Assembly: GCA_016845065.1 (NCBI GenBank)
Contig: JAERTG010000023.1
Coordinates: 167,553 to 231,552, forward strand
Source of the DNA: Fidelibacterota bacterium
Lineage (GTDB): Bacteria > Fidelibacterota > UBA8477 > JABMPR01
Length of the DNA stretch: 64,000 nucleotides
Direction of reading: 5' to 3'
This document shows positions 9,847-58,344 of the stretch, in pieces (within the stretch, counting starts at the first letter, position 1; each line of letters opens with the position of its first letter). A program made the translations under genes and the position numbers. The notes under the pieces are model-generated. The model searched no databases. It was not told where the DNA came from and saw nothing but the letters and a program-made list of their open reading frames with translations.

Positions 9847-11808
9847 TCATGGAAGGTAAATCATTTTCTTGATTTGAATGTTATCACCTGCAGAAGCGCT
9901 AATGAGATACAATCCTGCAGATGCATACACTCCCTCAGAATCAATTCCGTTCCATGTTATATGCCTTTGACCACTTACTTCATCAATTTTGAATCTACGT
10001 AATATACGACCTCTCACATCAATTATGTCAATTTGAATCAAATTTGCTGATATGTTCGTGATGGGAATCGTAGTATCTCCATTAAACGGGTTGGGAAAGT
10101 TTTGACCCAGACTAAAAACATCAGGTAGTTCTGGTGCTGTCCAGGAAGAGTCCAGGGTAAATTCCATGGACTTCATATTGAATCCGGCTTCATATATTTC
10201 AACAGTTAGCAAATGACTCCCAGCACTCATTGATATATCATCAAGTTGCACAGGTAACCAATTATGCCACCCACCGGTTACTGGAGTCTGTATGGCATCC
10301 TCCATCAACTCACCATCAAGGTAGAGCCGCAAGAGACCTGAGGAGTTTTGACTGGCAACTTCAATATCAAGGCTATAACTACCTCCCTGGTCAACTTCAA
10401 TGGTATATAGAAGCCATTCGCCATCCTCAGTCCATCCAATAATGGGATCACCGTGAGTGTCCATTTCTATATCCACACCATCATTTCTGTACTGATACCC
10501 TGAATTCCACGCAGTATAATCGTTCCAGTGCACGGTTTGGTAAACATGATCATTGTATGAAACACCCTGATGCCCGATATCATAGTCTGCGAATAGGATT
10601 TTTCCGGGAACGAGGAGGTCTTTAAAGGGTTTGTTTTGGTATGCAAATTCGGGATCAAAAAGTGAAGCAACCACACCTGGACGATAAGTGCAATTTTCTG
10701 TTTTGATGTTCTCTGCCAGCTCCATTAGTATAGCCTTGGCAGCTTGGATTGAAGGCTTGTTTTCTCCAGTATCCCAATAATGAATCAACTGACTATAATT
10801 TGTGGGACGGGCAATTGAATACGGGCTTGTTATAGTATCTACTTTTTTGGTTGTCCACCAACACCAGCCCACATTGTTAGCCTCAAATAACTGGACAGCA
10901 TCGTGGAACCATGGATTTGAATTCTCACCAGTTTCACTCATCCATAGCGGAACGTCATAACTGTTGCGCATATCGAGATGATTGTCAATAGAATGAGGTC
11001 CATTTTCGCTCCAATACTTATGGAAACTATATGACATATTATCAACAAAAGGTGGCGTCAACCCGGTAAAGTCTGTTGCATACCAATTACCTTCGATAAA
11101 CAGTATGTGATTGTTATCAACTGCCCGGACTACCTCCGCTATATCTGTATACAGTCTTCGGAATGCCTGGCTGCTCACTCCCTCAGGGAGGACTGGTTCA
11201 TTGAGGAGATCATATCCACCAATCCACGGTTCATCGGCGTATCTGGTTGCAATTGCTTCCCAAATCATCATCGTGTGCGATTTATTGGAGTCTGCCAACC
11301 ACAAACGAGCCGTTCCATCGCTGTCACTAATTGGTCCATGATTCTGCCCGCCAGGGGCACAATGCATATCCAAAACAACATGCATTCCAACATCAGAGCA
11401 CCAGGCAATCAGAGAATCAGTAACTTCATATCCCCATTCATTAGGTACTCCACGTGCCTTGGAAAACATATTATAGTGAAATGGCATCCTAACATGATCA
11501 AAGCCCCATAGGGCTAGTTCTGCAATATCCTCTCGCGTTACATAGTTATCATGATATGCTGCGTAAAACTCATCTGCTCCGGACTCTCCAATCACATCGA
11601 CTATTTGTGCGCGGATACTTGTGGGGGATCCCATTCCAGGAGTGTGTAACATATAGCCTTCTGGAACCAGCCATCCACCAAGACCCATACCTCTCATCAG
11701 AGCCGGATTACCATTTGCATCTACAATGCTCTGGCCTTCAGCATGAACAAATGCCTCCAGAGGGGAAAAAATCACAATCAGGACTAACAATAAGGGCAAG
11801 AGCTTCAA
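9847..11808 (-). CDS. glycoside hydrolase family 5 (Exg-like beta-glucanase motifs) with a C-terminal beta-sandwich module and T9SS C-terminal sorting domain
   Basis: A signal peptide is present. GLGGWLVPEGYM matches yeast GH5 exo-1,3-beta-glucanase. The acid/base motif is DLLNEP and the nucleophile motif is MSETGE. The C-terminus is …FPNPFN… CTD. Confidence 0.8.
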   Translation of the reverse strand: MKLLPLLLVLIVIFSPLEAFVHAEGQSIVDANGNPALMRGMGLGGWLVPEGYMLHTPGMGSPTSIRAQIVDVIGESGADEFYAAYHDNYVTREDIAELALWGFDHVRMPFHYNMFSKARGVPNEWGYEVTDSLIAWCSDVGMHVVLDMHCAPGGQNHGPISDSDGTARLWLADSNKSHTMMIWEAIATRYADEPWIGGYDLLNEPVLPEGVSSQAFRRLYTDIAEVVRAVDNNHILFIEGNWYATDFTGLTPPFVDNMSYSFHKYWSENGPHSIDNHLDMRNSYDVPLWMSETGENSNPWFHDAVQLFEANNVGWCWWTTKKVDTITSPYSIARPTNYSQLIHYWDTGENKPSIQAAKAILMELAENIKTENCTYRPGVVASLFDPEFAYQNKPFKDLLVPGKILFADYDIGHQGVSYNDHVYQTVHWNDYTAWNSGYQYRNDGVDIEMDTHGDPIIGWTEDGEWLLYTIEVDQGGSYSLDIEVASQNSSGLLRLYLDGELMEDAIQTPVTGGWHNWLPVQLDDISMSAGSHLLTVEIYEAGFNMKSMEFTLDSSWTAPELPDVFSLGQNFPNPFNGDTTIPITNISANLIQIDIIDVRGRILRRFKIDEVSGQRHITWNGIDSEGVYASAGLYLISASAGDNIQIKKMIYLP

Positions 11809-11832
11809 CGTATTAATTCCATTTACTGTTAA

Positions 11833-12942
11833 TCATTTTAGCATTAATACCTTTTGAATAATTTGCTGATCCATTGCATTCACCATCACAATGTAGGATC
11901 CGCTGGAAACCGTTTTGCCAGAATCATTTTTACCATCCCAAACCAGCGTTTGTACACCTGTAGGATTTGACGATATGGCTTTTGAGTAGATTTTTTTGCC
12001 AACCGTATCGAAAATCTCAAATGTTGCATTACCCTGGGAAAAATTTTGCAATATCAGATTCGTATTCGCATTAAAAGGATTGGGGTATGCAGGAGAAAGC
12101 TTCATATCCTCGGGAAGGCTTATTAAGCTGTCGTTGAGTGAAAGAGCAGGTCCACTGTACCCTGTATTAGTTGGGGTTGTCATGCACAGAACCATATAAC
12201 CATTGTTAAACACGACATTCTCTGGAATAAAATCACAGTTGTTCCCATTCCAGGTATGAGTTGCTTTCTGCCACCGGTCAGTATCCCAACTATCAAAATC
12301 ATCATGCCAAACAGGTGTAAAACCATTGTTGGTTCCTGTAGTCCCATCTCCAGGTGTATACGCAGCATAGCTTACCCAATCGTAATAGGCATAAATTGGT
12401 AGATTTGTCGGGTTAAAGGGTCCTACCCAGTCAGGGTAGTCAGGTTGCCAGATATTCATCATTAATTTCTGAGATCGATTTAGTTGTTCGATATGCCCAT
12501 ATTGTTGTCGATAGACCTCCACTCCATCAACAAACCAGGCTACATACCATGGCGTCCACTCGAATGCATAATCATGAAACACAACTGCTGGGTTATAACC
12601 GAGAGTAACTGAATGTTCATGGTTGGTTTGCCAATCTGTAATTGTATTGAACTGCACTCGATTGATATAGCGACCAAGAAATTCAATATCAATTTCATTC
12701 CAATCCTGAATCCCGGCACCTCCGAGTTCGTGGTAGGTAAACAAACTTGAAACCGTTCCGGAAAATGGAGCCGATTTTATTCTCGCTTCAAAGCGGCCGT
12801 ACAGGAAGGTTTCAATTGTTCTGTATTCACCACCACGATAGTCCTTAGCCTGAAGGAACAATACTGGGGATAAAATCAAGATCATGGTCGTTGCTCTCAT
12901 CAATTTCACATAATGAGCGATGTTCATATAACCCTTATTCAT
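11833..12942 (-). CDS. GH16 endo-beta-1,3(4)-glucanase with T9SS C-terminal sorting domain
   Basis: The GH16 catalytic motif EIDIEFLG is present. The C-terminus is …YPNPFNANT… CTD. Confidence 0.8.
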   Translation of the reverse strand: MNKGYMNIAHYVKLMRATTMILILSPVLFLQAKDYRGGEYRTIETFLYGRFEARIKSAPFSGTVSSLFTYHELGGAGIQDWNEIDIEFLGRYINRVQFNTITDWQTNHEHSVTLGYNPAVVFHDYAFEWTPWYVAWFVDGVEVYRQQYGHIEQLNRSQKLMMNIWQPDYPDWVGPFNPTNLPIYAYYDWVSYAAYTPGDGTTGTNNGFTPVWHDDFDSWDTDRWQKATHTWNGNNCDFIPENVVFNNGYMVLCMTTPTNTGYSGPALSLNDSLISLPEDMKLSPAYPNPFNANTNLILQNFSQGNATFEIFDTVGKKIYSKAISSNPTGVQTLVWDGKNDSGKTVSSGSYIVMVNAMDQQIIQKVLMLK

Positions 12943-13069: not shown

Positions 13070-14077
13070 CTACTGGAATAGCCTTACGTAATCTACTTCC
13101 ATGGTTTGGGGGAAAAGTGTAGACGCGTCAGGGTTACCAGGCCAGTCTCCACCTACAGCTACATTCAATATAAGATGAAATTCCTGATCAAATGGCGCTG
13201 GGTAGTCGCCGCCAACTGTAAACCAACTACTTAGTGTCTGAAACAGAACATCGTCAACATACCACCTCATTTCATCCGCCTCCCATTCAAAGGCAAAGGT
13301 GTGAAAGGAGTCAGAAAAATTTCCAGTCGGCAGTACATATGAGGTCCCCGTGGAGCTTTTGTCAGGGTAATAGTTTCCATAATGAATGGTGCCATATGTG
13401 CGTGTTATATCATGACCCAGGAACTCCATGATATCAATCTCACCACTTACAGGCCATCCTCCGTAGACGGAATAAGTGGGCATCATCCATATAGCAGGCC
13501 AGAGTCCTTGTCCTCGAGGTAGTTTTGCTCGGATTTCAATTCGCCCATACTTCCAGTCAACTTTTTGTGCAGTATTCATCCTTGCTGAATTATAAGCAGG
13601 GGCATTTGGATCAAAGGGATTCTCTTTCCTTGCTGTTAAATAAAGGTAGCCGTTTGTCAAGCCAGAATTACCAGGATCCTGGGTATATGACTGCAACTCA
13701 TTGTTGACATAGCCTGGCCACCACTCTTCATGGTTCCATTTTGTCGTATCAATACTACTACCATTAAATTCATCATTCCAAGTCAAACTCCAACCCACAG
13801 GAATTTCGGATGACTTCAGACAATTTCCGTCATCTACAGTGGCAATTGGATCGAAGTTGGCAGAACTTGAATCCGTACAGCCAAAATATTGACAGCTTCC
13901 ATCATCCTCGGTGGCTGTACTATCAAAATTTATTGAATTGGAATCCATACAACCATAGATCACTTCCACAATTGGGTCTTCAGGAGGTGTTGGAGATTTA
14001 CATGCTACTAACAAACCGATTGAAAGAATTGAAATTATAATCAGTTTTGGACTAATCAGATTCAAGTTTACTCCCAT
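13070..14077 (-). CDS. GH16 laminarinase-type lipoprotein with two short Cys-bracketed N-terminal mini-repeats
   Basis: The GEIDIMEFLG motif carries the Met beta-bulge typical of laminarinases. The lipobox is LLVAC. The start was trimmed to an internal ATG (14077) to remove a 113-nt overlap with the upstream gene. Confidence 0.8.
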   Translation of the reverse strand: MGVNLNLISPKLIIISILSIGLLVACKSPTPPEDPIVEVIYGCMDSNSINFDSTATEDDGSCQYFGCTDSSSANFDPIATVDDGNCLKSSEIPVGWSLTWNDEFNGSSIDTTKWNHEEWWPGYVNNELQSYTQDPGNSGLTNGYLYLTARKENPFDPNAPAYNSARMNTAQKVDWKYGRIEIRAKLPRGQGLWPAIWMMPTYSVYGGWPVSGEIDIMEFLGHDITRTYGTIHYGNYYPDKSSTGTSYVLPTGNFSDSFHTFAFEWEADEMRWYVDDVLFQTLSSWFTVGGDYPAPFDQEFHLILNVAVGGDWPGNPDASTLFPQTMEVDYVRLFQ

Positions 14078-15572
14078 AATCAAAGATATGATCCGTGGTA
14101 ATTTGAGGAAAAGGGGGCACGAGAACAGGATATGGAACATTATCCTGGGCAACAAACATGTCAATATGTGTAATGCTTACCGCTTCATATACATCAAAAT
14201 TGATGTAGATATCACTTGAATATACAGTTTGAAGGCTGTCTATGATGGGATTCATGTATCCTTCAATGAAAGGGATGGAATTTGAAGAACTTATCGTGCT
14301 GTCGTCAATCGAGAACCTGATTACTTCCTTATAAATTCCGGATAGATATTGATCTTGCCACATTTGCTCGTAAGAGATTATTTCCTTACGGGTTGAATAC
14401 CCTTTGGCATATGCTTCTCCAGTTATAATGTGGTCCTTGAGTAAATCTGCTATGGCGAGTTTCACCTGACGGGCAAAATCAGACATTTCAAAGCGTTTTT
14501 CACGAAACACCAAGGGGTGACTGGCCACGAGGATATAAAAATCTTGAACAGTCCAGTCTTTGCCATCAAAAGAGAAGAGTTTTTGATCCAAATGGGATTC
14601 ATTAAGATCAGATTCGTTCAATGCCAGATGCTGCTTTTCAAGGTCCCAAATCGCCTGATTCAGCATGGAGCCTTTATCCGACTCCTTCATCAAGTATTTT
14701 TCAGCCAAATCATCGACCACAACCCGAAAAGTATTTTCTTCAAGAACGAAACTTTTTCCGCGCATAAGTTCAGCAGTATGCTCGTTAAAAATCAGGTTGC
14801 CTTCACGCTCTTTTACCTTCGAGACGACATCCTCCCATAGCGTCCGATTTGCTGATTCGCTCATATTCAGTTTGTCATTCCAACCCATCACCTTGAGAAT
14901 AAGATATTTTCCATCCCTCAGCTCGAGAGGGCCAATTACTGATCCCTTTTCCAGGGGTTGAGAAAATAGTGCTTCCCGAATGATGATTTCTTCATCATCA
15001 AACCAGGTAAGTTTTTTTACTTCCACCACTTTCGTACCAAGAATCCGCTCATAGACGGATTCAAATGATTCTCCATCATCCAGGAAAGTTTTTGTAGCAT
15101 ATGCAAATTGAGAGTCAGGCAGAGTGATGAATCCTAAATCAAACTCACGATGGGCATCCTTAAAGCTCCGATTCAATTGCTCATCAGTTGAATTAACCAG
15201 GTTGATACCATGCTCATATCGATATAGCTGACGCATCGCTTGTTCTCGACGACCCTGAATGTACTTATCAAATTGAATGGGAGATTCAAATTCAGGTTTC
15301 GCTAAGACATCAAGGGCAAGAAGTTTTTCCGCAATCAGTGAATTGAGAATAATTTTTTTGTGGATGCTATTGTCCCCACTACAGTAACTCGGTCGTGGCG
15401 TATATTCAACTCTGCGAATAAATTCTGATTTAGTAATTACCCGATCGCCAACTCGAGCCATTACCTCAGAATTGGGATAGGAGTCGACATCCTTCTTCCC
15501 TCCACATCCACTAAGGAGAAAAAAAGATACGGTCAAGACATAAAAGGATCGGTATATCTTTTGAGCAAGCAT
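14052..15572 (-). CDS. hypothetical lipoprotein (SurA-N-like chaperone region possible)
   Basis: The lipobox is LLSGC. No catalytic motif was recognised. It lies directly downstream of the PorV-like gene. Confidence 0.4.
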   Translation of the reverse strand: MLAQKIYRSFYVLTVSFFLLSGCGGKKDVDSYPNSEVMARVGDRVITKSEFIRRVEYTPRPSYCSGDNSIHKKIILNSLIAEKLLALDVLAKPEFESPIQFDKYIQGRREQAMRQLYRYEHGINLVNSTDEQLNRSFKDAHREFDLGFITLPDSQFAYATKTFLDDGESFESVYERILGTKVVEVKKLTWFDDEEIIIREALFSQPLEKGSVIGPLELRDGKYLILKVMGWNDKLNMSESANRTLWEDVVSKVKEREGNLIFNEHTAELMRGKSFVLEENTFRVVVDDLAEKYLMKESDKGSMLNQAIWDLEKQHLALNESDLNESHLDQKLFSFDGKDWTVQDFYILVASHPLVFREKRFEMSDFARQVKLAIADLLKDHIITGEAYAKGYSTRKEIISYEQMWQDQYLSGIYKEVIRFSIDDSTISSSNSIPFIEGYMNPIIDSLQTVYSSDIYINFDVYEAVSITHIDMFVAQDNVPYPVLVPPFPQITTDHIFDYGSKLESD

Positions 15573-15593
15573 CCCTGCTATATCATTAACTCA

Positions 15594-16691
15594 CTAGAAC
15601 TGATATGTCAATGTAAAAGAGTTGGCATACCCTAGCAGACCCATGGATCTATAGGCATAGTCCAATGCAATTGCCTGACGCCCAAACAGCTTGTACTCGA
15701 TTCCCCCACCCCAAGTGATGGCTGAATATGGTATTTCTGAACCAAATAAATTTAGCTCTTCATCGCCATTAACTAAATACAATCCTCGCATTCCAGTTCT
15801 CAGGAACACATGTGTACCTCGAATAAACGCTAAATCGTACTGGAGTCCCAAATTGACTGATTCACTATTATTGTTTGGGTGCAAAACATCTATGGCAACC
15901 AGCAGATTGTGTTTGTGGGTATACAGCGGATATAAGGATATGCCAGCTCTGAATATTACTGGGAGGTCCCATGAATCGGTTTTGTATTCACCTTGAACCG
16001 TAGAATAATTTCCAGCTTCATCTGGTTCAATATCGATGACATTAAGCATATCAATACCAGAATACGACATTTTTGAACCATAATTGGAAATACTCATACC
16101 AATTCGCATACCCTCTTCCTGTTTACCTGTGGGACTGAAGAAGTCGGTTACGATTGAAACACCCAGATCAAGTGCCAATGCACTTGCCCCACTATGCCAA
16201 ATAGTCGATGAGATGTATTTTGTTGATACGCCAAAAGAGAACCAGTTGACGATAGAACGGGCATAGGTCAGAGACATGGCATATTCTGAGGCCTGATAAA
16301 ACTCACCTGTCCCATCCTGGTACCGTAAATTGGTGACTGGAATACTTCCAAAATCGACGTGATTCATGCTTAAGCCAATGTTACCCACATTTGGAACAGT
16401 AATAGCAACTGCGGCATAACGATTGGCAATGCCAGCAACCCAGGCTTGATCCATGACAATTAACTCGGGCTGTACCTGGAAGGCTAAACCTGCTGGGTTC
16501 CAATAAATTGAGGATATGCTTTTGCCTACGCTCACATAGGCCTCACCCATTGCTACTGCTGGTCCAATACCAATTTCCAGGAAATTGGCAGCTGTGGTTC
16601 CATATCTGTACGGTTTCTGGGCAAATAAGGAGCTAGAGACCAGCAACCCTAAAATCGTAATCTTTAAAAATGATTTCATATATGTTCTCAT
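15594..16691 (-). CDS. porV: PorV/LptO-like T9SS outer-membrane beta-barrel
   Basis: A signal peptide is present. The N-terminal motif FLEIGIGPAVAMGEAYVSV…SIYWNPAGLAF resembles the PorV family. It ends …TYQF. It overlaps the stop of the preceding 1187-aa CTD protein by 4 bp, matching porU-porV gene order. Confidence 0.5.
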   Translation of the reverse strand: MRTYMKSFLKITILGLLVSSSLFAQKPYRYGTTAANFLEIGIGPAVAMGEAYVSVGKSISSIYWNPAGLAFQVQPELIVMDQAWVAGIANRYAAVAITVPNVGNIGLSMNHVDFGSIPVTNLRYQDGTGEFYQASEYAMSLTYARSIVNWFSFGVSTKYISSTIWHSGASALALDLGVSIVTDFFSPTGKQEEGMRIGMSISNYGSKMSYSGIDMLNVIDIEPDEAGNYSTVQGEYKTDSWDLPVIFRAGISLYPLYTHKHNLLVAIDVLHPNNNSESVNLGLQYDLAFIRGTHVFLRTGMRGLYLVNGDEELNLFGSEIPYSAITWGGGIEYKLFGRQAIALDYAYRSMGLLGYANSFTLTYQF

Positions 16692-20227: not shown

Positions 20228-20228
20228 T

Positions 20229-33215: not shown

Positions 33216-33233
33216 ACCCAATTTGAATACATA
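33216..33233 (+). promoter_or_regulatory. sigma-54-like -24/-12 element (TGGCAC-N5-TTGAA) upstream of the GH3 gene
   Basis: A TGGCACccaatTTGAA element lies about 50 nt upstream of the GH3 ATG. The -12 element has GA rather than the consensus GC, so the match is weak. Confidence 0.2.
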
Positions 33234-47685: not shown

Positions 47686-47777
47686 TAGACATACTGTTTG
47701 TACTGTTACTGACTATATATGTACTGAAATATGAATCTCTCTCTCTTTAAGAATTGATCAATGAAGGAGTCTGGCAC

Positions 47778-49727: not shown

Positions 49728-49733
49728 GGGAAA

Positions 49734-51446: not shown

Positions 51447-51506
51447 GACCCCGATATCGATTGTGATAAACGGTTAATAAGAATTTTATGATTAGAGGTA
51501 TTTAGA

Positions 51507-54500
51507 GTGAAATCTTCTCGTAAACCCAGCTACCAGTTGAACAAGAATGGTGATTTTCTTATAAGTAACTACAATTCAGCTAAGCCATTCTCAAGCTTTT
51601 TCCCAGGAATCGCAGGAAAAATGGGCATACCCATGTGGGTGTTCTATGTGAATCGCGGTCAGGGGATCTGCAGTATGGGTGTCCAGGACAAGGAGAATCC
51701 TATTATGGAATTTCTTCCTGCGAATTGGGCTTATCAATTGGCACCAACACAGGGGTTTAGAACCTTTTTAAAATTTCCTGAGGGTTCAGGAGTCAACTTT
51801 TATGAACCGTTTCAGGATCACTACCAGGATAAGGAAATTGAGCGTACTCAGACCATGCATATTTCACCCTCCCACCTGGTATTGGTAGAAGAAAACAAGA
51901 CTCTCGGGCTTCGTTTTACCGTTGAGTATCATTCTGTCCCTAATGAAAGTTACGCTGGTCTCATAAGAAATCTGCATATAACAAATTTAAACAACATTGA
52001 TGTATCCTTCGAGGGACTGGATGGTCTCCCACTCATTGTTCCTTTTGGCATTGGCAATTTCGGCTTGAAAAATATCCGCCGTTTGATGGAAGCATTTGTT
52101 GAAGTGAAAAACTATGACGCGAAAGCCCCATTGTTTAAGGCCAAAGTTAAGCCCGCTGATCGGCCCGATGTTGAAATGCTGGAACGCGGTAATTTTTATG
52201 TTGGATTTGAGAACATTCACAAGGGGTTGAAGAAACTAACCCCCATCGTTGATCCAGAGCGAATCTTTGGTACTCACAACGATTATATTTATCCTGATTT
52301 TTTCCTGAATACACCTTTTGATGCCCTTCTGGATCATCAGGCATTTGAGAATCGATATCCCTCAGCAATGAGCAAGTTTTCAACAGAATTAGGCGCCGGT
52401 GAGACATATACGGTGAGCTCTGTAATTGGTCATGCTGAATCTCAGGACGCTTTGAACTCCCAGTTACCAAACATCATGAGAAAAGACTATTTCTCCAAAA
52501 AAGCTCAGGAGAGTATCAACATTATCGATGAGTTGACTCAGAAAAATCTGGTGATAAGCCGTGAGCCTATTTTTGACATGTATGTCAGACAAAATTTTCT
52601 GGATAATGTGCTTCGTGGTGGTTTTCCCTATACTCTGGAAGGAAACCAGGCTAAATCTGTACTCCATCTTTATTCGAGAAAACATGGTGATCTTGAGCGC
52701 GATTATAATGACTATCGTATCACTCCCTCTCACTATTCCCAGGGTAACGGCAATTTTAGGGACATCAATCAAAATCGTCGCTCTGATTTATTGTTTAACC
52801 CTGATGTGGGCTCCGGAAACCTGGAACATTTTGTCAATCTCATTCAACTCGATGGGTTCAACCCCTTGGTACTAAAGGAAGTTAGGTACAGGGTTGAAGA
52901 TTTGAATTCTGCCACCCAAATAGTTAACAGTCATTTTAACTCAGGATTATCGTTTGAACTCCTCACCTTCCTCCAGGAGCCTGTCAGTCCAGGAGAATTG
53001 CTGGATTTTCTAAGGCAAAAAGACGTTGTGTTTGATGACAATGCTGATGTCTTATTGGGTGACCTCCTGGGAAGCTGCAAAAAAATCAATGATACAGATT
53101 TTGCAGAGGGATACTGGTCAGATCATTGGACTTATAACCTAGACCTTCTTGAAAATTATCTGAGCATTTATCCTGAGAGACTGAGACATATTCTATTTGA
53201 TTATCAGGAATTCACATTTCACGATAGTGATCATCGTGTACTTCCTCGTTCTGATAAATATGTAATCTGGGACGGTAAAGCGATGCAGCTAGATGCTGTT
53301 TTTCATGACAAAGAGAAAGCCACTCTCATCGCTTCCAGGAGCAAAGATCAACACCTCATGCGAGATGCTCATGGGCTGGGTCAAGTGGTTCAGACGACAC
53401 TTTTTGTGAAATTACTCAGCATTATCACCAATAAAATCGCTTCTCTGGATCCTTCAGGTATAGGTGTCGAAATGGAGACAGATAAGCCCAATTGGTATGA
53501 CGCATTAAATGGCTTGCCTGGTGTACTTGGTTCAAGTCTCAGTGAAACTATAGAAATCAAGCGTCACGCTGAATTCATTTTATCTGCTATGGATGAAATC
53601 CATCTTGCAGAAGAGATAGCTCTATACATTGAGCTACATGAATTCACCAGTATGGTATTCGCGGCACTCTCGAATGGTGGGAATGATTATACATATTGGG
53701 ATACCGTAAGCTCTGCAAAGGAAGAGTATCGTTCCAAAACCAGGATGGGTATCCATGGATCTGAAATAACTGTAAGTCAGGATTGGATCCAGGAGTTTCT
53801 CCAGGCTGTTGTAGGTAAGGTTGATCAAAGTATTGAGAAAGCGCTCTACTCGGATACGGGTATCCCTGGAACCTATTTTTATCATGAAGTCGCGGATTAT
53901 CAGCTTATCGATCGTATTGATGATCCGGGTACGAAGCATCCGAAACTCAATGGACGAGGCTTCCCTTGTTACCAGGCGAACTCCTTTAAATTAGTACGTC
54001 TACCTCTTTTTCTTGAGGGTCCCGTCCACTATCTCCGCACACTTCCAGAACGAGATATGGCCAAACAGCTGGCTAAAGATATTAAAAATAGTGGTCTTTA
54101 TGACAACGAGCTGGAAATGTATAAGGTTAATGCTGAATTGAGCGACCAACCCATGGAAATTGGTCGTGCAAGGGTGTTCTCGCCGGGATGGTTTGAGAAT
54201 GAATCGATATGGTTGCACATGGAATACAAATATATGCTGGAGCTACTTCGCAATGGTTTGTATGAAATTTTCTTCCAGGATTTCAAAAAAGTGTTCATCC
54301 CCTTTCTTGACCCTGAAGTGTACGGCCGCAGCATTTTGGAAAATTCATCCTTTCTGGTGAGCAGCGCAAATCCAAATCCTGACCTTCATGGTACTGGATT
54401 CGTCGCCCGACTTAGTGGCGCAACAGCTGAATTCATTCATATCCTCATGCAGATGGCCATGGGGCCAAGAGCTTTTTCAATCAATTCTACAGGTGAATTG

Positions 54501-54824
54501 AACTTTGCGCTGAAGCCCATGCTTCCCTCCTGGTTGTTTACGGAAGCAGAGCAAAAAACAACCGTCCTGATGGATGGAGTTCAGACTTCAATCTCAACGC
54601 CAGCCCACAGCTTCACCTTTATGCTGCTTAGTAATATACTGGTGACTTATCACAACCCCAAGCAGAAGGACACTTTTGGTCCCGATGGGGTTACACCTCA
54701 GGAATGGCTTCTTACGGACCCTAAGGGCCAATCTCAGAGCTTTCAGGGCTCCCTTCTGGGAGGGGAGCAAGCGGAGCAAATTAGATCGAAACAGATTAAA
54801 CGTATTGAGATCACACTAGGTTGA
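51507..54824 (+). CDS. large cytoplasmic protein, candidate beta-1,3-glucan/laminaribiose phosphorylase (GH149/GH161/GH94-like)
   Basis: The protein is 1105 aa with no signal peptide. It is flanked by GH30 and GH17 in one operon. Its size and N-terminal beta-sandwich-like start fit family GH149. Catalytic motifs were not confirmed. Confidence 0.35.
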   Translation: MKSSRKPSYQLNKNGDFLISNYNSAKPFSSFFPGIAGKMGIPMWVFYVNRGQGICSMGVQDKENPIMEFLPANWAYQLAPTQGFRTFLKFPEGSGVNFYEPFQDHYQDKEIERTQTMHISPSHLVLVEENKTLGLRFTVEYHSVPNESYAGLIRNLHITNLNNIDVSFEGLDGLPLIVPFGIGNFGLKNIRRLMEAFVEVKNYDAKAPLFKAKVKPADRPDVEMLERGNFYVGFENIHKGLKKLTPIVDPERIFGTHNDYIYPDFFLNTPFDALLDHQAFENRYPSAMSKFSTELGAGETYTVSSVIGHAESQDALNSQLPNIMRKDYFSKKAQESINIIDELTQKNLVISREPIFDMYVRQNFLDNVLRGGFPYTLEGNQAKSVLHLYSRKHGDLERDYNDYRITPSHYSQGNGNFRDINQNRRSDLLFNPDVGSGNLEHFVNLIQLDGFNPLVLKEVRYRVEDLNSATQIVNSHFNSGLSFELLTFLQEPVSPGELLDFLRQKDVVFDDNADVLLGDLLGSCKKINDTDFAEGYWSDHWTYNLDLLENYLSIYPERLRHILFDYQEFTFHDSDHRVLPRSDKYVIWDGKAMQLDAVFHDKEKATLIASRSKDQHLMRDAHGLGQVVQTTLFVKLLSIITNKIASLDPSGIGVEMETDKPNWYDALNGLPGVLGSSLSETIEIKRHAEFILSAMDEIHLAEEIALYIELHEFTSMVFAALSNGGNDYTYWDTVSSAKEEYRSKTRMGIHGSEITVSQDWIQEFLQAVVGKVDQSIEKALYSDTGIPGTYFYHEVADYQLIDRIDDPGTKHPKLNGRGFPCYQANSFKLVRLPLFLEGPVHYLRTLPERDMAKQLAKDIKNSGLYDNELEMYKVNAELSDQPMEIGRARVFSPGWFENESIWLHMEYKYMLELLRNGLYEIFFQDFKKVFIPFLDPEVYGRSILENSSFLVSSANPNPDLHGTGFVARLSGATAEFIHILMQMAMGPRAFSINSTGELNFALKPMLPSWLFTEAEQKTTVLMDGVQTSISTPAHSFTFMLLSNILVTYHNPKQKDTFGPDGVTPQEWLLTDPKGQSQSFQGSLLGGEQAEQIRSKQIKRIEITLG

Positions 54825-54864
54825 ATCAGTAACAACTAGACAATAATTCTTAAACGGGGAAAAA

Positions 54865-55950
54865 ATGAAACATTCACGATATTTAAAAATCTTTACAGTA
54901 GTTTTGACTGGCATGATCATATCATGTCAACCCCAAGTACCTGCAGGACCTGAAATGGATAATATTCCTGTTCCAAATGAGAACGCGGTTAATCAAGAAA
55001 AAACTTTCACTACCAGGCCATTCGTGCCTTTTCTAGATGGTAGATGGATCGGTAATGCTATTTCTTTTGGATGCTATCGTGAAGGTCAAGCTCCCCACGT
55101 GAAGGGACCCTCTGAGGAGGAAATCCTAGAAGATTTGAACATACTTTCAAAACATTGGAATCTTGTAAGAGTTTATGGTTCTGATGACGATAGTGAACGT
55201 GTGTTAAAGGTGATTCATGAGCATCAACTCCCCATGAAGGTGATGTTGGGAATCTGGCTTGAGAATGAGACAAAACGTCCAGAACGAAAACCTCATAATA
55301 TGGAGCAGGTTCGACGCGGTATTGAATTAGCCAATCGATTTCCCAAAGAGGTGATCGCAATTAATGTTGGGAATGAAACTCAAGTTGAATGGTCCTGGCA
55401 TGGAATGGAAATGGAAAATCTGATCAAGTATATCAGGACCGTGAGAGAAAGTGTGCCGCAGCCGGTAACAACAGCTGATGACTATAATTTTTGGAACAAG
55501 GATCACAGCCGGATGGTGGCTAAGGAGATCGATTTTATTGGTCTTCATGCATATCCCCTATGGAATGGAAAAACTCTAGAGAAATCTGTCGCCTGGATAG
55601 ATGCGATTTACAAATCCGCCAAAGCTTTTCACCCAGATCGGGAGATCATACTCAGTGAAACAGGCTGGGCAACAAAACATGACCCATCGAAACAAGGTCC
55701 AGGAGAAGAGGGTGCACTGGTCAAAACGGAGGTCAGTGTAAAGGCTCAGCAATCCTTCCTTGTGGAATTCAATAAATGGGTGGAAGAGCAGCAGGTAACC
55801 GTTTTTCTTTTTGAAGCCTTCGATGAACCATGGAAAGGTGGCGGTCTTGAATCTGGACCAGATGTAATGGAAAAACACTGGGGGGTTTTCAACGAAGATC
55901 GTACCCCTAAAGAATCCTTGAAAGCTTTCCTAAATACTAAGAAACATTAA
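54865..55950 (+). CDS. GH17 endo-beta-1,3-glucanase lipoprotein
   Basis: The GH17 signature is ILSETGWAT (nucleophile). The acid/base motif is INVGNE. The lipobox is IISCQ. Confidence 0.8.
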   Translation: MKHSRYLKIFTVVLTGMIISCQPQVPAGPEMDNIPVPNENAVNQEKTFTTRPFVPFLDGRWIGNAISFGCYREGQAPHVKGPSEEEILEDLNILSKHWNLVRVYGSDDDSERVLKVIHEHQLPMKVMLGIWLENETKRPERKPHNMEQVRRGIELANRFPKEVIAINVGNETQVEWSWHGMEMENLIKYIRTVRESVPQPVTTADDYNFWNKDHSRMVAKEIDFIGLHAYPLWNGKTLEKSVAWIDAIYKSAKAFHPDREIILSETGWATKHDPSKQGPGEEGALVKTEVSVKAQQSFLVEFNKWVEEQQVTVFLFEAFDEPWKGGGLESGPDVMEKHWGVFNEDRTPKESLKAFLNTKKH

Positions 55951-56013
55951 TCTAAACATAGTTTCTACGAAGATTTAACGACTCCCTTCGCCAGGAGCAC
56001 ATCGCATTGAAAG

Positions 56014-58344
56014 GTGTCAAACATGAAAGCAGGATTAGTCTTTAAAATAATACTGGCAACGATCCTAGGGTTGAGTGGATCTCTAGTTGCTCAAGTAGCC
56101 CCCATTAATTTTGAAGCTGAAGGTATTGGAGCAGATTGGACGTGGACATCTTTTGAAAACGACACAAATCCTCCTCTGACCATTGTTTCAAACCCTGGTG
56201 CAGACACTGTGAACGCCTCTGCAATGGTAGCTTCCTACACCACATTAACCACAGGTCAACCCTGGGCTGGTTTTGAATCTCTTCACGGTGCAGATATCGG
56301 ACCCTTCAGTTTTGATGTGACCAATAGTACGATTAAGCTTATGGTATACAAAACCGTTATCAGTGATGTCGGTGTTAAATTCGCCGAAGCCAATGGTGAA
56401 GCACAGCCAGAGGTAAAGGTTGCAAACACCTTGATCAACCAATGGGAAGAGCTGACATTTGACCTTTCTGGCAGCATCGGTGCTGGAATAACTGGCATAG
56501 TTGATCAGATCATTATTTTTCCCGACTTTGACCTGGTTGGAAGAACGACAGACAATACTTGTTACATAGATAATATCACTTTCTCCGGACAGGATCTACC
56601 CCCAGCGCCTGCTGCTCATGCACCATTACCTACAGCTCCTGCAGATGATGTCATTTCAGTATTCAGTGATTCATATACAAATCTTGCCCAAACCAATTTC
56701 AATCCTGGTTGGGGTCAGGAAACGGTAATGTCCGAGGTGATGATAGAGGGTAATAACACACTGCTTTACTCAAGCTTGGACTACCAGGGTATAGAGCTGG
56801 GAAGTGCTCAGGACCTAACTGAAATGGATTCGGTGCATGTGGACTTCTGGAGCGCTAATTCAACCGAATTGCAGATCTTTCTCATCAGTCAGTCCTCAGG
56901 AGAACAGGCCTACTCACTACCATTCGCTACTGAAACCTGGGTAAGTACCTACGTTCCCCTGTCTCATTTCACCGATCTTGGACTCTCAATAAGTGATATT
57001 TTCCAGCTTAAGTTTGTAGGCAATGGCGATGTGTATATTGACAATATTTATTTTGAAGGCGAAGGTGGTGGCCTGGAACCAACCCCCTATTTCCCAATCG
57101 ACTTTGAGATTGATGGTCATGGAGCTGACTGGACCTGGACTACCTTTGAAAATGGTGCCAACGATCCACTTGTTATCGGTACCAATCCAAGCACCACTGG
57201 AGTAAACGCTTCTGCAACCGTGGCATCAATGACAACCATGACTACGGGTGCGGCTTGGGCTGGTGTGGAGTCTCAACATGGTGCAGACATCGGTACTTTT
57301 TCACTTGATGCCAGCAATAGCACAATAAGTATCATGGTGTACAAACCCATTCTTAGTGATGTGGGGATTAAACTGGCAAAGCCTGATGGTTGGTCCATGG
57401 GAGAAATAAAAGTAGCCAATTCTGTTATTAATGAGTGGGAAGAGTTGACCTTCGATTTTTCATCACAGATGCAAGACGGCTATGATCAGATCGTCATTTT
57501 CCCAGACTTTGATCTTGCTGGCAGAACCACTGACAATACGTGTTACTTTGACAACATCACTTTTTCTGGTCAAGTGGTGCCAGCATCTCCTGTGGCTCAC
57601 GCTCCAATCCCTACATTGGCAGCAGAGGATGTTGTTTCGATATTTAGCGATTCCTATCCAAGCACTGCAGGTGTCAATTTGAACCCTGGCTGGGGACAGG
57701 CAACGGTGGTAAGTGAGGTAGAAATTGAACAAAACAATACTTTAGTTTATTCTGATTTGAATTATCAGGGCACAGAATTTCAAGCCATTGATGTAAGTGG
57801 TATGACTCACTTTCACCTGGACTTCTGGACAGGAAACTCAACTGCCCTGAATTTCTTTGTCATCAGTCAGACCCCTACAGTTGATAGTGATTACTTCACT
57901 CTCGCCATCACACCTGAACAGTGGATTAGCTTGGATATCCCCTTGACTGCATACCCAAATGTTGATCTAGCAGATGTGTTTCAGTTCAAGGTCGAAGGAA
58001 ATGGAACGATTTATTGGGACAACTTTTACTTCTATTCAAATACGGTTGCTGTTGATGATGAGAGAAAAGAGGTGATTCCCAGTGAATTTATTCTCGAACA
58101 GAATTTCCCTAATCCTTTCAACCCTGGAACCTCAGTAAACTACAGAATCGCTGAATCCGGGTCTGTAACACTCAAGATTTATAACATTTTGGGGCAAGAG
58201 GTTGTGACCTTGGTTGATGGATTTGCGTCACCTGGCTATTATAGTACTCATTTAGATGCGAACCACCTGGCCGCTGGCACCTACTTCTATGCGCTTACAT
58301 CTGGAAATCAGAGAATTGTTAAAAAGATGGTGTTGATCAAATAG
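56014..58344 (+). CDS. secreted non-catalytic multidomain protein ((A-B)x2 + T9SS CTD), candidate laminarin-binding surface protein
   Basis: A signal peptide is present. Two tandem units of about 340 aa each contain a CBM4/6-like domain (…DNTCY.DNITFSG) plus a 150-aa domain shared with ORF 23200..26628. The C-terminus is …FPNPFNPGT… CTD. Confidence 0.6.
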   Translation: MSNMKAGLVFKIILATILGLSGSLVAQVAPINFEAEGIGADWTWTSFENDTNPPLTIVSNPGADTVNASAMVASYTTLTTGQPWAGFESLHGADIGPFSFDVTNSTIKLMVYKTVISDVGVKFAEANGEAQPEVKVANTLINQWEELTFDLSGSIGAGITGIVDQIIIFPDFDLVGRTTDNTCYIDNITFSGQDLPPAPAAHAPLPTAPADDVISVFSDSYTNLAQTNFNPGWGQETVMSEVMIEGNNTLLYSSLDYQGIELGSAQDLTEMDSVHVDFWSANSTELQIFLISQSSGEQAYSLPFATETWVSTYVPLSHFTDLGLSISDIFQLKFVGNGDVYIDNIYFEGEGGGLEPTPYFPIDFEIDGHGADWTWTTFENGANDPLVIGTNPSTTGVNASATVASMTTMTTGAAWAGVESQHGADIGTFSLDASNSTISIMVYKPILSDVGIKLAKPDGWSMGEIKVANSVINEWEELTFDFSSQMQDGYDQIVIFPDFDLAGRTTDNTCYFDNITFSGQVVPASPVAHAPIPTLAAEDVVSIFSDSYPSTAGVNLNPGWGQATVVSEVEIEQNNTLVYSDLNYQGTEFQAIDVSGMTHFHLDFWTGNSTALNFFVISQTPTVDSDYFTLAITPEQWISLDIPLTAYPNVDLADVFQFKVEGNGTIYWDNFYFYSNTVAVDDERKEVIPSEFILEQNFPNPFNPGTSVNYRIAESGSVTLKIYNILGQEVVTLVDGFASPGYYSTHLDANHLAAGTYFYALTSGNQRIVKKMVLIK

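What the first reader, a model, noticed from the sequence alone, without database searches (positions are those of the whole stretch)
9847..58344. Two-part laminarin utilisation system built on T9SS-CTD enzymes and binders instead of SusC/SusD
The enzyme set matches the known marine laminarin degradation toolkit. Seen in the sequence:
- two GH16 genes, one with the EIDIME motif
- two Exg-like GH5
- GH17, GH30 and GH3
- a candidate GH149-type phosphorylase

It differs from Bacteroidetes PULs in three ways. There is no SusD. A lone TonB-dependent receptor is present. At least five proteins carry the PNPFNP T9SS sorting domain: GH5, GH16 and two multi-CBM binders (the CotH giant is treated separately). 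Surface attachment through PorU/PorV would replace SusD/SusE-type lipoprotein binders. Such an organisation has not been well described for laminarin use outside Bacteroidetes.
Basis: partly seen in the sequence, partly recalled or inferred. Interest (0 to 1): 0.7.

Follow-up and report, generated by a model that had tools for sequence, protein, structure and literature searches.

The report
SusD-free beta-glucan (laminarin) locus in Marinimicrobia
An uncultured ocean bacterium (Marinimicrobia/SAR406) carries a large, widely conserved gene cluster for eating the algal sugar laminarin, and it appears to replace the classic SusC/SusD uptake pair with a TonB-dependent receptor joined to secretion-system-anchored surface proteins.

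Summary
HMM and PDB searches confirm a GH16_3 laminarinase (EIDIME), a second GH16, two GH5, GH3, GH30, GH17, five T9SS type-A CTD proteins (all PNPFN), one TonB-dependent receptor and no SusD.

Corrections:
- The phosphorylase is GH161, not GH149.
- The CTD-bearing GH16 is lichenase-type (EIDIE).
- Six proteins look like lipoproteins (lipobox read by eye): the laminarinase, GH30, GH17, GH3, a SurA-like protein and an unclassified TIM-barrel protein. T9SS therefore adds to lipoprotein anchoring rather than replacing it.

The organism is a Marinimicrobia (Fidelibacterota). In relatives the two parts form one contiguous locus.

The receptor gene is tightly packed with three others: a 1179-aa protein with a variant CTD, a PorV/PorQ-family barrel and a SurA/PPIase-like lipoprotein. 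This block, preceded by a CTD-bearing binder, is syntenic with GH16/GH5 genes in about 80 species genomes.

Distant paralogues keep the order receptor, big protein, PorV, but sit beside other enzyme sets (GH99, GH125, GH38, GH94). That is how SusC/SusD behaves in PULs.

One binder contains a module that fold-matches a solved laminarin-binding CBM.

All functions are inferred. I found no prior description in the searchable literature. I rate it a new variant of a known kind.

The parts
31547..32908 (-). Membrane-anchored SBP_bac_1-like protein, the first gene of the sensor operon. Likely the sugar-sensing partner of the kinase.
   Evidence: Pfam SBP_bac_1 E=1.2e-13. Found together with the HK in relatives.
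30072..31550 (-). Histidine kinase
   Evidence: Pfam HATPase_c. The HK-RR-SSF order recurs upstream of the receptor in L055, L060, L069, L071, L074 and L077-L079.
28623..30068 (-). Sigma-54-dependent response regulator
   Evidence: Pfam Sigma54_activat E=7e-70 plus Response_reg.
26687..28294 (-). Sodium:solute symporter (inner-membrane sugar import). First gene of the long minus-strand operon.
   Evidence: Pfam SSF E=4e-93. TIGR00813 382 bits.
23200..26628 (-). 1142-aa non-catalytic surface binder: CBM48/X25-like repeats, 'module B', choice-of-anchor-X motif and a T9SS type-A CTD.
   Evidence: TIGR04183 33.9 bits. Shares module B with the 776-aa binder at 54% identity. A CTD-bearing ORF ends within 600 nt upstream of the receptor in 45 of 47 testable loci. 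It contains CBM9 in 4 of 5 sampled distant loci.
20229..23096 (-). TonB-dependent receptor (CarboxypepD_reg + Plug + barrel) with a TonB-box-like GE.VVV motif. Presumed oligosaccharide importer.
   Evidence: Pfam. The SusC model TIGR04056 scores only 35 bits against a cut-off of 368. No close solved SusC. Motif conserved in 64 orthologues.
16688..20227 (-). 1179-aa conserved protein of unknown fold with a variant T9SS-like C-terminal domain. Candidate surface partner of the receptor.
   Evidence: No Pfam family. Divergent CTD: E=2e-6 against an HMM of the window's own CTDs. 1-nt gap to the receptor gene and 4-nt overlap with the PorV-like gene. Superfamily of 576 clusters at E<=1e-30. The receptor-big-PorV order holds in all 8 distant loci examined (9 triads).
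15594..16691 (-). PorV/PorQ-family outer-membrane beta-barrel
   Evidence: NF033709 164.6 bits (cut-off 90). The PorV, PorQ and PorV2 equivalog models all score below cut-off. PDB 6h3i PorV E=1.8e-6. Directly downstream of the big protein in 70 of 71 loci.
14052..15572 (-). 506-aa lipoprotein, SurA/PpiD-like (chaperone/PPIase-like)
   Evidence: Lipobox LLSGC. Among 15 orthologues, SurA_N_2 hits 8 (best 3e-5) and Rotamase_2 hits 5. Present downstream in 60 of 62 loci. Rotamase proteins of 505-563 aa occur in distant loci L165, L166, L168 and L169.
13070..14077 (-). GH16_3 endo-beta-1,3-glucanase (laminarinase), lipoprotein
   Evidence: EIDIME motif and lipobox LLVAC. PDB laminarinases 4dfs and 3azx, E about 5e-63.
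11833..12942 (-). GH16 lichenase-type beta-1,3-1,4-glucanase with a T9SS CTD
   Evidence: EIDIE motif. PDB 1,3-1,4-beta-glucanases 3axd and 1mve, E about 1e-50. TIGR04183 37.4 bits.
9847..11808 (-). GH5 + CBM6 + T9SS CTD
   Evidence: Pfam Cellulase E=4e-27 and CBM_6 E=1e-15. TIGR04183 32.9 bits. PDB hits include glucan 1,3-beta-glucosidase 8z2w, and CBM chains from a GH16 endo-1,3-beta-glucanase (5fui) and from protein BH0236 (1w9s).
33284..35131 (+). GH3 beta-glucosidase, lipoprotein. A sigma-54-like -24/-12 element lies 57 nt upstream, at 33212-33227.
   Evidence: Pfam GH3 N and C domains. Best NCBIfam model is exo-beta-1,3/1,6-glucosidase, 361 bits, below the equivalog cut-off. Promoter-like site.
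35173..38727 (+). CotH + lamin-tail-domain giant with a T9SS CTD. It travels with the locus; its role is unknown.
   Evidence: Pfam CotH E=3e-46 and LTD. TIGR04183 31.7 bits. Syntenic in L007-L009, L016, L017, L019, L023, L061, L075, L086, L090 and L097.
38734..40824 (-). GH5 + CBM9, secreted, no CTD
   Evidence: Pfam. 37% identical to the other GH5. PDB exo-1,3-beta-glucanases (Exg/XOG1) E about 1e-11.
45056..46390 (+). 444-aa unclassified TIM-barrel (clan GH-A-like) lipoprotein, the first gene of part 2
   Evidence: Weak Pfam Glyco_hydro_2_C E=8e-6. No NCBIfam match. Conserved at this position in relatives.
46387..47685 (+). ROK-family regulator with an N-terminal HTH (NagC/Mlc-like)
   Evidence: Pfam ROK E=3e-55 plus HTH. 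NagC model 197 bits.
47754..49727 (+). GPH-family (MFS_2) glycoside:cation symporter. Presumed oligosaccharide import across the inner membrane.
   Evidence: Pfam MFS_2 E=1e-62. TIGR00792 175 bits.
49734..51446 (+). GH30 (GH30_1/_3-like, beta-1,6-glucan-type rather than xylanase-type), lipoprotein
   Evidence: Pfam GH30 E=8e-62. PDB glucosylceramidases E about 1e-49 against xylanases at 1e-7. Best NCBIfam model is endo-1,6-beta-glucanase BT3312, 181 bits.
51507..54824 (+). GH161 beta-1,3-glucan phosphorylase, no signal peptide (cytoplasmic)
   Evidence: PDB 9qqk 'GH161 phosphorylase' E=7.6e-216. GH149 model only 119 of 1150 bits.
54865..55950 (+). GH17 beta-1,3-glucanase, lipoprotein
   Evidence: Pfam GH17 35 bits. 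PDB 6fcg (GH17 family glycoside hydrolase) E=6e-17 and 4wtp E=4e-18.
56014..58344 (+). 776-aa surface binder with architecture (module A - module B) x2 + T9SS CTD
   Evidence: TIGR04183 45 bits. AF2 mean pLDDT 81.5, four beta-sandwich domains plus CTD. Foldseek hit 8qx6 'Novel laminarin-binding CBM X584', TM on the target 0.71, 30% identity, and 7kwb B. thetaiotaomicron SGBP-B. Modules A and B are shuffled in many proteins and are fused to a GH16 in P0228.

Best explanation
This is a conserved beta-glucan (laminarin, probably also mixed-linkage glucan) utilisation locus of a Marinimicrobia (Fidelibacterota, SAR406) bacterium. It is organised like a PUL but has a different outer-membrane core.

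Proposed pathway (inferred throughout):
1. The type IX secretion system delivers two non-catalytic multi-module binders, a lichenase-type GH16, a GH5-CBM6 and a CotH protein to the cell surface through their type-A CTDs.
2. A lipoprotein GH16_3 laminarinase and these enzymes cut the glucan into oligosaccharides.
3. The oligosaccharides enter through a TonB-dependent receptor. I propose that the receptor works in a complex with a 1179-aa protein. That protein would be held at the surface by its variant, probably uncleaved, CTD bound to the PorV/PorQ-family barrel encoded next to it, in the way PorZ binds PorQ and PorU binds PorV. A SurA/PPIase-like lipoprotein would assist assembly. This complex would take the place of SusD.
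4. In the periplasm, the lipoproteins GH3, GH30 and GH17 trim side chains and shorten the chains.
5. A GPH-type symporter and a sodium:solute symporter import oligosaccharides and glucose.
6. The cytoplasmic GH161 phosphorylase releases glucose-1-phosphate.
7. An SBP-HK-sigma54 regulator trio and a ROK regulator control expression.

Shown here: family assignments, motifs and conserved synteny. Inferred: substrate, protein locations, complex formation and regulation.
For: Enzymes and modules:
- Family assignments come from Pfam, NCBIfam and PDB searches.
- CTDs, catalytic motifs and lipoboxes were read from the sequence.
- One binder has a good AF2 model that matches the solved laminarin-binding CBM 8qx6 and a Bacteroides SGBP-B.
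- Both binders share a module. That module is fused to a GH16 in another organism.

Locus conservation:
- Taxon: Marinimicrobia.
- In species-representative genomes of Marinimicrobia, Calditrichota and KSB1, the receptor lies directly upstream of the big protein in 59 of 60 testable loci.
- PorV-like lies directly downstream in 70 of 71.
- The SurA-like gene lies downstream in 60 of 62.
- A GH16 is nearby in 48 of 55.
- A CTD-bearing protein lies upstream of the receptor in 45 of 47.
- Part 2 is syntenic in relatives and abuts part 1 in several of them.

Core block:
- Gene spacing is tight: a 1-nt gap and a 4-nt overlap.
- The big protein belongs to a large diversified superfamily.
- Its distant members keep the receptor-big-PorV order, usually with a CTD-bearing protein (CBM9 or CBM4_9 in some) in front and often a rotamase-like gene nearby. 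They sit beside different GH sets (GH125, GH99, GH38/GHL10, GH94). One contig carries two triads in tandem.
- 208 of 210 full-length members keep the same variant C-terminal domain.
- The receptor has a conserved TonB-box-like motif.
Against: - There are no experimental data of any kind.
- The N-terminal 750 residues of the 1179-aa protein could not be modelled (pLDDT below 50). They have no recognisable family, so a glycan-binding or lid role is conjecture.
- Core T9SS genes (sprA, porK-N, porU) are not in the window, and I could not check the rest of the genome.
- A PorV-like barrel plus a PPIase-like protein is also what accompanies the SprA translocon in Flavobacterium (my recollection of Lauber et al. 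2018). These genes could therefore serve secretion rather than uptake.
- The lichenase-type GH16, CBM9 and the two GH5 enzymes of undetermined specificity leave room for substrates other than laminarin.
- Lipoprotein status and surface versus periplasmic location were read by eye from lipoboxes.
Confidence: 0.62

Rival explanations
1. The 1179-aa protein, the PorV-like barrel and the SurA/PPIase-like lipoprotein are a dedicated T9SS secretion or attachment module for the locus's own CTD cargo. It would be analogous to PorU-PorV, PorZ-PorQ or SprA-PorV-PPI. The TonB-dependent receptor would import oligosaccharides on its own, as in proteobacterial TBDR loci. Nothing would stand in for SusD.
For: - The PorV/PorQ family assignment is solid.
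- The weak NCBIfam and Foldseek similarities of the big protein's C-terminus are to PorU and PorZ.
- porU and porV are adjacent in Bacteroidetes, and a PPIase co-purifies with SprA-PorV (both from my own knowledge, not tested here).
- The lipoprotein family hits SurA_N and Rotamase models.
- Every locus of this type carries CTD cargo.
Against: - The big protein's gene lies next to the receptor's in the target locus (1-nt gap), in 59 of 60 orthologous loci and in all 8 distant loci examined (9 triads).
- The superfamily is large (576 clusters at E<=1e-30), and paralogues occur in tandem, each with its own receptor. That pattern fits a substrate-diversified uptake component, not shared secretion machinery.
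- The PorU model matches only about 55 C-terminal residues at 15 bits, against a cut-off of 420.
Confidence: 0.22
2. The locus targets other polysaccharides rather than laminarin: cellulose, xylan, agar or cereal-type mixed-linkage glucan. Earlier SAR406 genome surveys read the same families this way (GH5/CBM6 as cellulose, GH30/CBM9 as xylan, GH16 as agar).
For: - Thrash et al. made these assignments (bioRxiv 10.1101/095471).
- One GH16 is lichenase-type.
- Pfam labels the GH5 domains 'Cellulase', and the top PDB hit of both is a 'putative beta-xylosidase'.
- CBM9 was first described in xylanases (my own knowledge).
Against: - The other GH16 is a GH16_3 laminarinase with EIDIME.
- GH17 matches the solved GH17 family glycoside hydrolase 6fcg.
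- GH30 is far closer to glucosylceramidase and beta-1,6-glucanase types than to xylanases, E 1e-49 against 1e-7.
- The phosphorylase is GH161, a beta-1,3-glucan phosphorylase family (PMC6484121).
- The best GH3 model is exo-beta-1,3/1,6-glucosidase.
- A binder module matches a solved laminarin-binding CBM.
- Mixed-linkage glucan as an additional substrate is not excluded.
Confidence: 0.1
3. The genes are merely neighbours and do not form a functional unit.
For: In this genome two unrelated transporters (CitMHS, MatE) lie between the parts.
Against: The gene order is conserved across phyla. The two parts share a binder module. In relatives the parts are contiguous, without CitMHS or MatE between them.
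Confidence: 0.02

Closest known systems
Laminarin PULs of marine Bacteroidota (e.g. Formosa, Christiangramia forsetii): SusC/SusD with GH16_3, GH17, GH30, GH3 and CBM-repeat SGBPs
   Same: - The catalytic toolkit is the same: GH16_3, GH17, GH30, GH3, and a GH149/GH161-type phosphorylase in some loci.
- There are non-catalytic multi-CBM surface binders, and one module here fold-matches the Cf-SGBP CBM (8qx6; preprint 10.1101/2023.09.07.556657).
- The logic is the same: a receptor with an N-terminal CarboxypepD_reg domain, inner-membrane symporters and a dedicated regulator.
   Different: - There is no SusD, and the receptor fails the SusC/RagA model (35 bits against 368).
- The binders and two enzymes carry T9SS CTDs instead of lipoprotein anchors.
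- The receptor is followed by a 1179-aa protein with a variant CTD, a PorV-family barrel and a SurA-like lipoprotein.
- The host phylum is Marinimicrobia.
T9SS attachment pairs PorU-PorV and PorZ-PorQ (Porphyromonas, Flavobacterium)
   Same: A PorV/PorQ-family barrel is encoded right next to a large protein whose C-terminal domain resembles a T9SS CTD. In the known pairs that CTD is retained and binds the barrel (from my own knowledge).
   Different: - There is no sequence similarity to PorU or PorZ outside the CTD, and the PorV and PorQ equivalog models are not met.
- The pair is always fused into an operon with a TonB-dependent receptor and glycoside hydrolases.
- It has many paralogues, unlike the single-copy PorU, PorV, PorZ and PorQ.
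TBDR-based, SusD-free carbohydrate utilisation loci of Proteobacteria (CUT loci of Xanthomonas; PUL-like loci of Alteromonas and relatives)
   Same: A TonB-dependent receptor without SusD is clustered with GHs, an inner-membrane transporter and a regulator.
   Different: As far as I know, those loci have no T9SS cargo and no PorV-family or big-protein partner. This comes from my own knowledge and was not tested here.
T9SS-secreted glycoside hydrolases of Bacteroidota (Flavobacterium johnsoniae ChiA, Cytophaga hutchinsonii cellulases)
   Same: Glycoside hydrolases with a type-A CTD (TIGR04183) are exported or anchored by T9SS.
   Different: Those enzymes are not embedded in a conserved cassette of receptor, big protein and PorV-family barrel.

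Membership tests
Bacteroidota PUL (SusC/SusD type) | An adjacent susC-like and susD-like gene pair | tested here: not met
   No SusD Pfam family was found in the 33 ORFs scanned (all but four short overlapping ORFs of the 37 of at least 150 aa). The gene after the receptor is a 1179-aa protein with no Pfam hit.
Bacteroidota PUL (SusC/SusD type) | The receptor belongs to the SusC/RagA subfamily (TIGR04056) | tested here: not met
   35.4 bits, N-terminal 130 residues only, against a cut-off of 368. No solved SusC matched at E<=1e-3.
T9SS type-A cargo | A C-terminal TIGR04183 / PF18962 sorting domain above cut-off | tested here: met
   Five proteins score 31.7-45.2 bits against a cut-off of 23. 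All have PNPFN at the start of the domain. The 1179-aa protein has only a divergent version.
T9SS type-A cargo | A functional T9SS (SprA, PorK-N, PorU/V) in the same genome | not testable with these tools
   None of these genes lies in the 64-kb window, and the rest of the genome could not be scanned.
PorV/PorQ family outer-membrane proteins | Scores above the NF033709 family cut-off | tested here: met
   164.6 bits against 90. PDB 6h3i PorV E=1.8e-6.
PorV (equivalog) / PorQ (equivalog) | Scores above the NF033710 or NF033711 cut-off | tested here: not met
   68.1 bits against 250, and 67.9 against 220. It is a family member but is neither PorV nor PorQ proper.
PorU sortase | Full-length match to NF033707, including the C25-like peptidase domain | tested here: not met
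   Only residues 1122-1173 match, at 15.5 bits against a cut-off of 420.
GH149 beta-1,3-glucan phosphorylase | Matches the GH149 equivalog model | tested here: not met
   119 bits against 1150.
GH161 beta-1,3-glucan phosphorylase | Full-length similarity to characterised or solved GH161 enzymes | tested here: met
   9qqk 'GH161 phosphorylase' E=7.6e-216 over residues 12-1022.
GH16_3 laminarinase | ExDxxE catalytic motif with the extra residue (EIDIME), and closest relatives are laminarinases | tested here: met
   Motif at residue 242. The top hits are mostly laminarinases and beta-1,3-glucanases, E down to 4e-63.
GH16 lichenase (beta-1,3-1,4-glucanase) type | EIDIE motif, and closest relatives are lichenases | tested here: met
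   EIDIE at residue 83. 1,3-1,4-beta-glucanase structures 3axd and 1mve, E about 1e-50. NCBIfam BglS scores 175 bits, below the equivalog cut-off of 300.
Laminarin-binding CBM family founded on Cf-SGBP (PDB 8qx6, 'X584') | Same fold with detectable sequence identity, plus laminarin binding | tested here: inconclusive
   The fold match is TM 0.71 on the target, rmsd 4.3 A, 30% identity over 176 columns. Which module matches was not resolved, and binding was not tested.
GH17 / GH30 / GH3 / GH5 | Pfam family above the gathering score | tested here: met
   GH17 35.1 against 28.2; GH30 209.7 against 23; GH3 255.8 against 27; GH5 95.9 and 91.8 against 23.5. CAZy subfamilies were not assigned because dbCAN was not available.

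The most novel reading that the evidence does not exclude
The block of CTD-bearing CBM binder, TonB-dependent receptor, roughly 1100-aa protein with a variant CTD, PorV-family barrel and often a SurA/PPIase-like protein is a general, so far unrecognised outer-membrane core of PUL-like loci. It occurs across the FCB phyla that are outside Bacteroidia: Marinimicrobia, Calditrichota, KSB1, Ignavibacteria and Rhodothermales-like lineages. It would be a functional counterpart of SusC/SusD in which the receptor's surface partner is delivered and tethered by the type IX secretion system rather than by a lipid anchor. It has diversified by substrate: beta-glucan here, alpha-mannan-type and other GH sets elsewhere.
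Probability: 0.45. Interest if true: 0.85.

Novelty: new variant of a known kind. Interest (0 to 1): 0.66.

Why it matters
Laminarin is one of the largest fluxes of organic carbon in the ocean. SAR406/Marinimicrobia is among the most abundant uncultured bacterial groups there, and what it feeds on is poorly known.

Earlier genome surveys read these same gene families as cellulose, xylan and agar genes. A conserved laminarin locus gives a concrete, testable substrate for the group instead.

More broadly, glycan uptake is understood mechanistically mainly for SusC/SusD in Bacteroidota. Suppose a receptor partnered with T9SS-tethered proteins is the equivalent device in sister phyla. That would reveal a second way to build a selective glycan import machine. 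It would link secretion to uptake. It would also give a new marker for predicting polysaccharide use in metagenomes where SusD-based PUL prediction finds nothing.

Tried and rejected
- **Structure of the 1179-aa protein.** The AF2 model built from a 16-sequence alignment had mean pLDDT 45, and the N-terminal 750 residues were unmodelled. The Foldseek hits to PorZ and PorU had TM of only about 0.1 and count as a weak hint at most.
- **GH149.** Rejected in favour of GH161.
- **SusC and PorU.** SusC membership of the receptor and PorU membership of the big protein were both rejected.
- **Sigma-54 promoters.** One good site lies upstream of GH3 (33212-33227). No convincing site lies upstream of the SSF operon or of part 2, so co-regulation by the sigma-54 regulator is not established.
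- **Paralogues in held flanks.** A search for paralogous triads in the flanks of the loci I held found none. They were reached only through the representative-library search followed by a second homologue search.
- **RNA genes.** The tRNA and Rfam scans of the window found nothing.
- **Literature.** I searched Marinimicrobia, SAR406 and Marinisomatota with laminarin, GH16, TonB and type IX secretion. I also searched PorV with TonB and SusD, and Melioribacter. No description of this locus or cassette turned up. Subscription-only papers are not covered.
- **Fidelibacter multiformis.** The species description mentions no polysaccharide genes.

Full report

On the minus strand, from 32908 down to 9847, the genes run in this order:
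- an SBP-like protein, a histidine kinase and a sigma-54 response regulator;
- a sodium:solute symporter;
- a 1142-aa non-catalytic protein with a T9SS CTD;
- a TonB-dependent receptor;
- a 1179-aa protein with no Pfam family;
- a PorV/PorQ-family barrel;
- a 506-aa lipoprotein;
- a GH16;
- a GH16 with a CTD;
- a GH5-CBM6 with a CTD.

GH3 and a CotH-LTD-CTD giant follow on the plus strand, then GH5-CBM9 on the minus strand. Two unrelated transporters (CitMHS, MatE) come next.

A plus-strand operon then runs from 45056 to 58344. It holds an unclassified TIM-barrel lipoprotein, a ROK regulator, a GPH-type symporter, GH30, a 1105-aa phosphorylase, GH17 and a 776-aa CTD protein.

Exactly five proteins carry PNPFN and pass TIGR04183. 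No SusD family hits any of the 33 ORFs scanned, that is all but four short overlapping ORFs of the 37 of at least 150 aa.

**Corrections to the enzyme list.**
- The phosphorylase matches solved GH161 enzymes at E=7.6e-216. It scores 119 bits against a GH149 model whose cut-off is 1150. GH161 is a beta-1,3-glucan phosphorylase family (PMC6484121), so the functional reading survives.
- The GH16 with EIDIME is a GH16_3 laminarinase.
- The CTD-bearing GH16 has EIDIE. Its closest structures are 1,3-1,4-beta-glucanases, that is lichenases.
- GH30 is much closer to the glucosylceramidase and beta-1,6-glucanase types than to xylanases.
- GH17 matches the solved GH17 family glycoside hydrolase 6fcg, which I recall as the Formosa laminarin-PUL enzyme.
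- The best GH3 model is an exo-beta-1,3/1,6-glucosidase.
- The two GH5 are 37% identical to each other. They hit a mixture of beta-1,3-glucosidases, exo-glucanases and endoglucanases. 'Exg-like' is therefore plausible, but their specificity is open.

Lipobox-type signal peptides, read by eye, are present on six proteins: the GH16_3, the 506-aa protein, GH3, the TIM-barrel protein, GH30 and GH17. The GH161 has no signal peptide. T9SS anchoring therefore adds to lipoprotein anchoring rather than replacing it.

**Organism and conservation.** The window matches a Logan contig from run SRR13374099. Homologues of the 1179-aa protein are labelled Candidatus Marinimicrobia or Neomarinimicrobiota, and the closest MAG is 90% identical.

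I ran tblastn with the window's proteins against 80 species-representative loci from Marinimicrobia, Calditrichota, KSB1 and other groups. Among the loci long enough to test:
- the receptor lies directly upstream of the big protein in 59 of 60;
- the PorV-like gene lies directly downstream in 70 of 71;
- the 506-aa gene lies downstream in 60 of 62;
- a GH16 is nearby in 48 of 55;
- GH5-CBM6 is nearby in 31 of 42;
- a CTD-bearing ORF ends just upstream of the receptor in 45 of 47.

In four of five distant loci sampled, that upstream protein is a CBM9-containing CTD protein.

Part 2 is syntenic in the closer relatives found through the GH161 gene. In several of them it directly abuts the HK-SBP and GH3 genes of part 1, with no CitMHS or MatE between. 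The 'two parts' are therefore one locus that is split in this genome.

**The binders.**
- The 776-aa protein gave a good AF2 model (mean pLDDT 81.5): four beta-sandwich domains plus the CTD.
- Foldseek matched the solved 'novel laminarin-binding CBM X584' (8qx6: TM 0.71 on the target, 30% identity). It also matched a Bacteroides thetaiotaomicron SGBP-B. Laminarin-binding CBM repeats of this kind are described in the SGBP of the Christiangramia forsetii laminarin PUL (preprint 10.1101/2023.09.07.556657).
- The protein's architecture is (A-B)x2-CTD.
- Module B is also present in the 1142-aa binder of part 1, at 54% identity.
- Modules A and B are shuffled in many architectures, and they are fused to a GH16 in one homologue.

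**The missed core.**
- *Gene spacing:* the receptor gene ends 1 nt before the 1179-aa gene, which overlaps the PorV-like gene by 4 nt.
- *Receptor:* it has the CarboxypepD_reg-Plug-barrel layout and a conserved TonB-box-like motif. It fails the SusC model.
- *Big protein:* it has no recognisable family, a very conserved N-terminal 750 residues rich in Asp-Gly motifs, a variable middle and a divergent CTD.
- *Barrel:* it passes the PorV/PorQ family model but none of the specific PorV, PorQ or PorV2 models.
- *506-aa lipoprotein family:* it repeatedly hits SurA_N and Rotamase models.

**The big protein belongs to a diversified superfamily.** A profile search of 1.84 billion representatives found 576 clusters at E<=1e-30 and 2,643 at E<=1e-10. 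Through a distant representative I obtained members from KSB1, Ignavibacteria, Rhodothermales-like lineages and Caldithrix abyssi.

In all 8 loci examined (9 triads) the order is receptor, big protein, PorV-family barrel. A CTD-bearing protein, in some loci with CBM9 or CBM4_9, usually precedes it. A rotamase-like protein of 505-563 aa is often nearby.

These loci carry other enzyme sets: GH125, GH99, GH38 with GHL10, GH94 and an MGH1-like enzyme. Their regulators are LacI, ROK or GntR. One contig holds two triads in tandem. The variant C-terminal domain is kept in 208 of 210 full-length members.

**Interpretation.** A conserved module that keeps its internal order while travelling with different glycoside hydrolase sets is how SusC/SusD behaves in PULs. 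I therefore favour the following reading.

The receptor, big protein and PorV-like barrel form the uptake core of a SusD-free PUL-like system. The big protein is held at the surface by its variant CTD bound to the cognate barrel. This would be by analogy with PorZ-PorQ and PorU-PorV, which I recall from the literature and did not test.

T9SS-delivered CBM binders would feed substrate to the receptor. The remainder follows the established laminarin route: periplasmic GH3, GH30 and GH17, then symporters, then the cytoplasmic GH161.

The main rival is that the big protein, barrel and PPIase-like protein serve secretion or attachment of the locus's CTD cargo, and the receptor works alone. The constant pairing with a receptor and the many paralogues argue against this but do not exclude it.

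A non-laminarin substrate is unlikely given GH16_3, GH17, GH161 and the CBM match. Mixed-linkage glucan may be an additional substrate because of the lichenase-type GH16.

[quoted passage not shown] They assigned these genes to cellulose, agar and xylan.

One Marinimicrobia-like GH16 laminarinase has been characterised, and its authors call it the first characterised enzyme of the phylum (PMC12296878).

The searchable library yielded no description of the locus architecture or of the cassette of receptor, big protein and PorV-family barrel. Subscription-only literature was not covered.

**Verdict.** The locus is a new variant of a known kind: a PUL-like glycan utilisation locus. Its conserved outer-membrane core may be of wider significance.

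**Limits.**
- All functions are inferred from sequence, fold and synteny.
- The fold of the big protein's N-terminal region is unknown.
- The rest of the genome, including the T9SS core genes, was not examined.
- No CAZy subfamily tool was available.

Noticed in passing
window 16688-23096 (-); loci L162-L169: The order receptor, roughly 1100-aa protein, PorV-family barrel recurs in distant phyla beside different GH sets (GH125, GH99, GH38/GHL10, GH94). The big protein's superfamily has 576 clusters at E<=1e-30. On L162 two triads lie in tandem.
   Followed up: yes
window 35173-38727 (+): The CotH kinase-like + lamin-tail-domain + T9SS CTD giant travels with the beta-glucan locus in many relatives (for example L007-L009, L016, L017, L019, L023, L086, L090, L097). 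Its role in glycan use is unexplained.
   Followed up: partly
window 45056-46390 (+): A 444-aa lipoprotein has only a weak GH2-type TIM-barrel match (E=8e-6) and no NCBIfam or close PDB relative. It is conserved as the first gene of part 2 and has up to three tandem paralogues near GH161 in L136. It may be an unclassified clan GH-A glycosidase.
   Followed up: partly
window 13900-14000 (-) and about 24640-24720 (-): A short Cys-containing motif, GC(M/T)D..A.N(Y/F)D..AT(V/E)DDGSC, occurs twice in the N-terminal linker of the GH16_3 and once in the 1142-aa binder. NCBIfam calls it 'choice-of-anchor X' (38.7 bits).
   Followed up: no
window 33212-33227 (+): A sigma-54-type -24/-12 element, TGGCACCCAATTTGAA (one mismatch to the consensus), lies 57 nt upstream of GH3, next to the divergent sigma-54 regulator operon. 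No equally good site was found upstream of the SSF operon or of part 2.
   Followed up: partly
window 40886-44922: A CitMHS/TrkA_C transporter and a MatE efflux gene separate the two parts here. They are absent from that position in several relatives (L086, L087, L090, L097), which suggests an insertion or rearrangement in this lineage.
   Followed up: partly
window 7202-9720 (-): An unknown 348-aa protein, a VTC-domain protein and DUF4956 follow the GH5 gene. The 348-aa and VTC genes sit in the same place in L002, L037, L060 and L071. Their link to the locus is unknown.
   Followed up: no
window 58916-59371 (-): A 151-aa ORF with a signal-peptide-like N-terminus and roughly 20-aa tandem repeats (ISLSHT..GAI.LYN.SGQ.T) has no Pfam match. 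The 58.4-61.1 kb stretch is otherwise poor in long ORFs.
   Followed up: no
window 47754-49727 (+): The GPH-family symporter is unusually long (657 aa). The match to the transporter models is split, with about 170 extra residues between the N-terminal helices and the rest.
   Followed up: no
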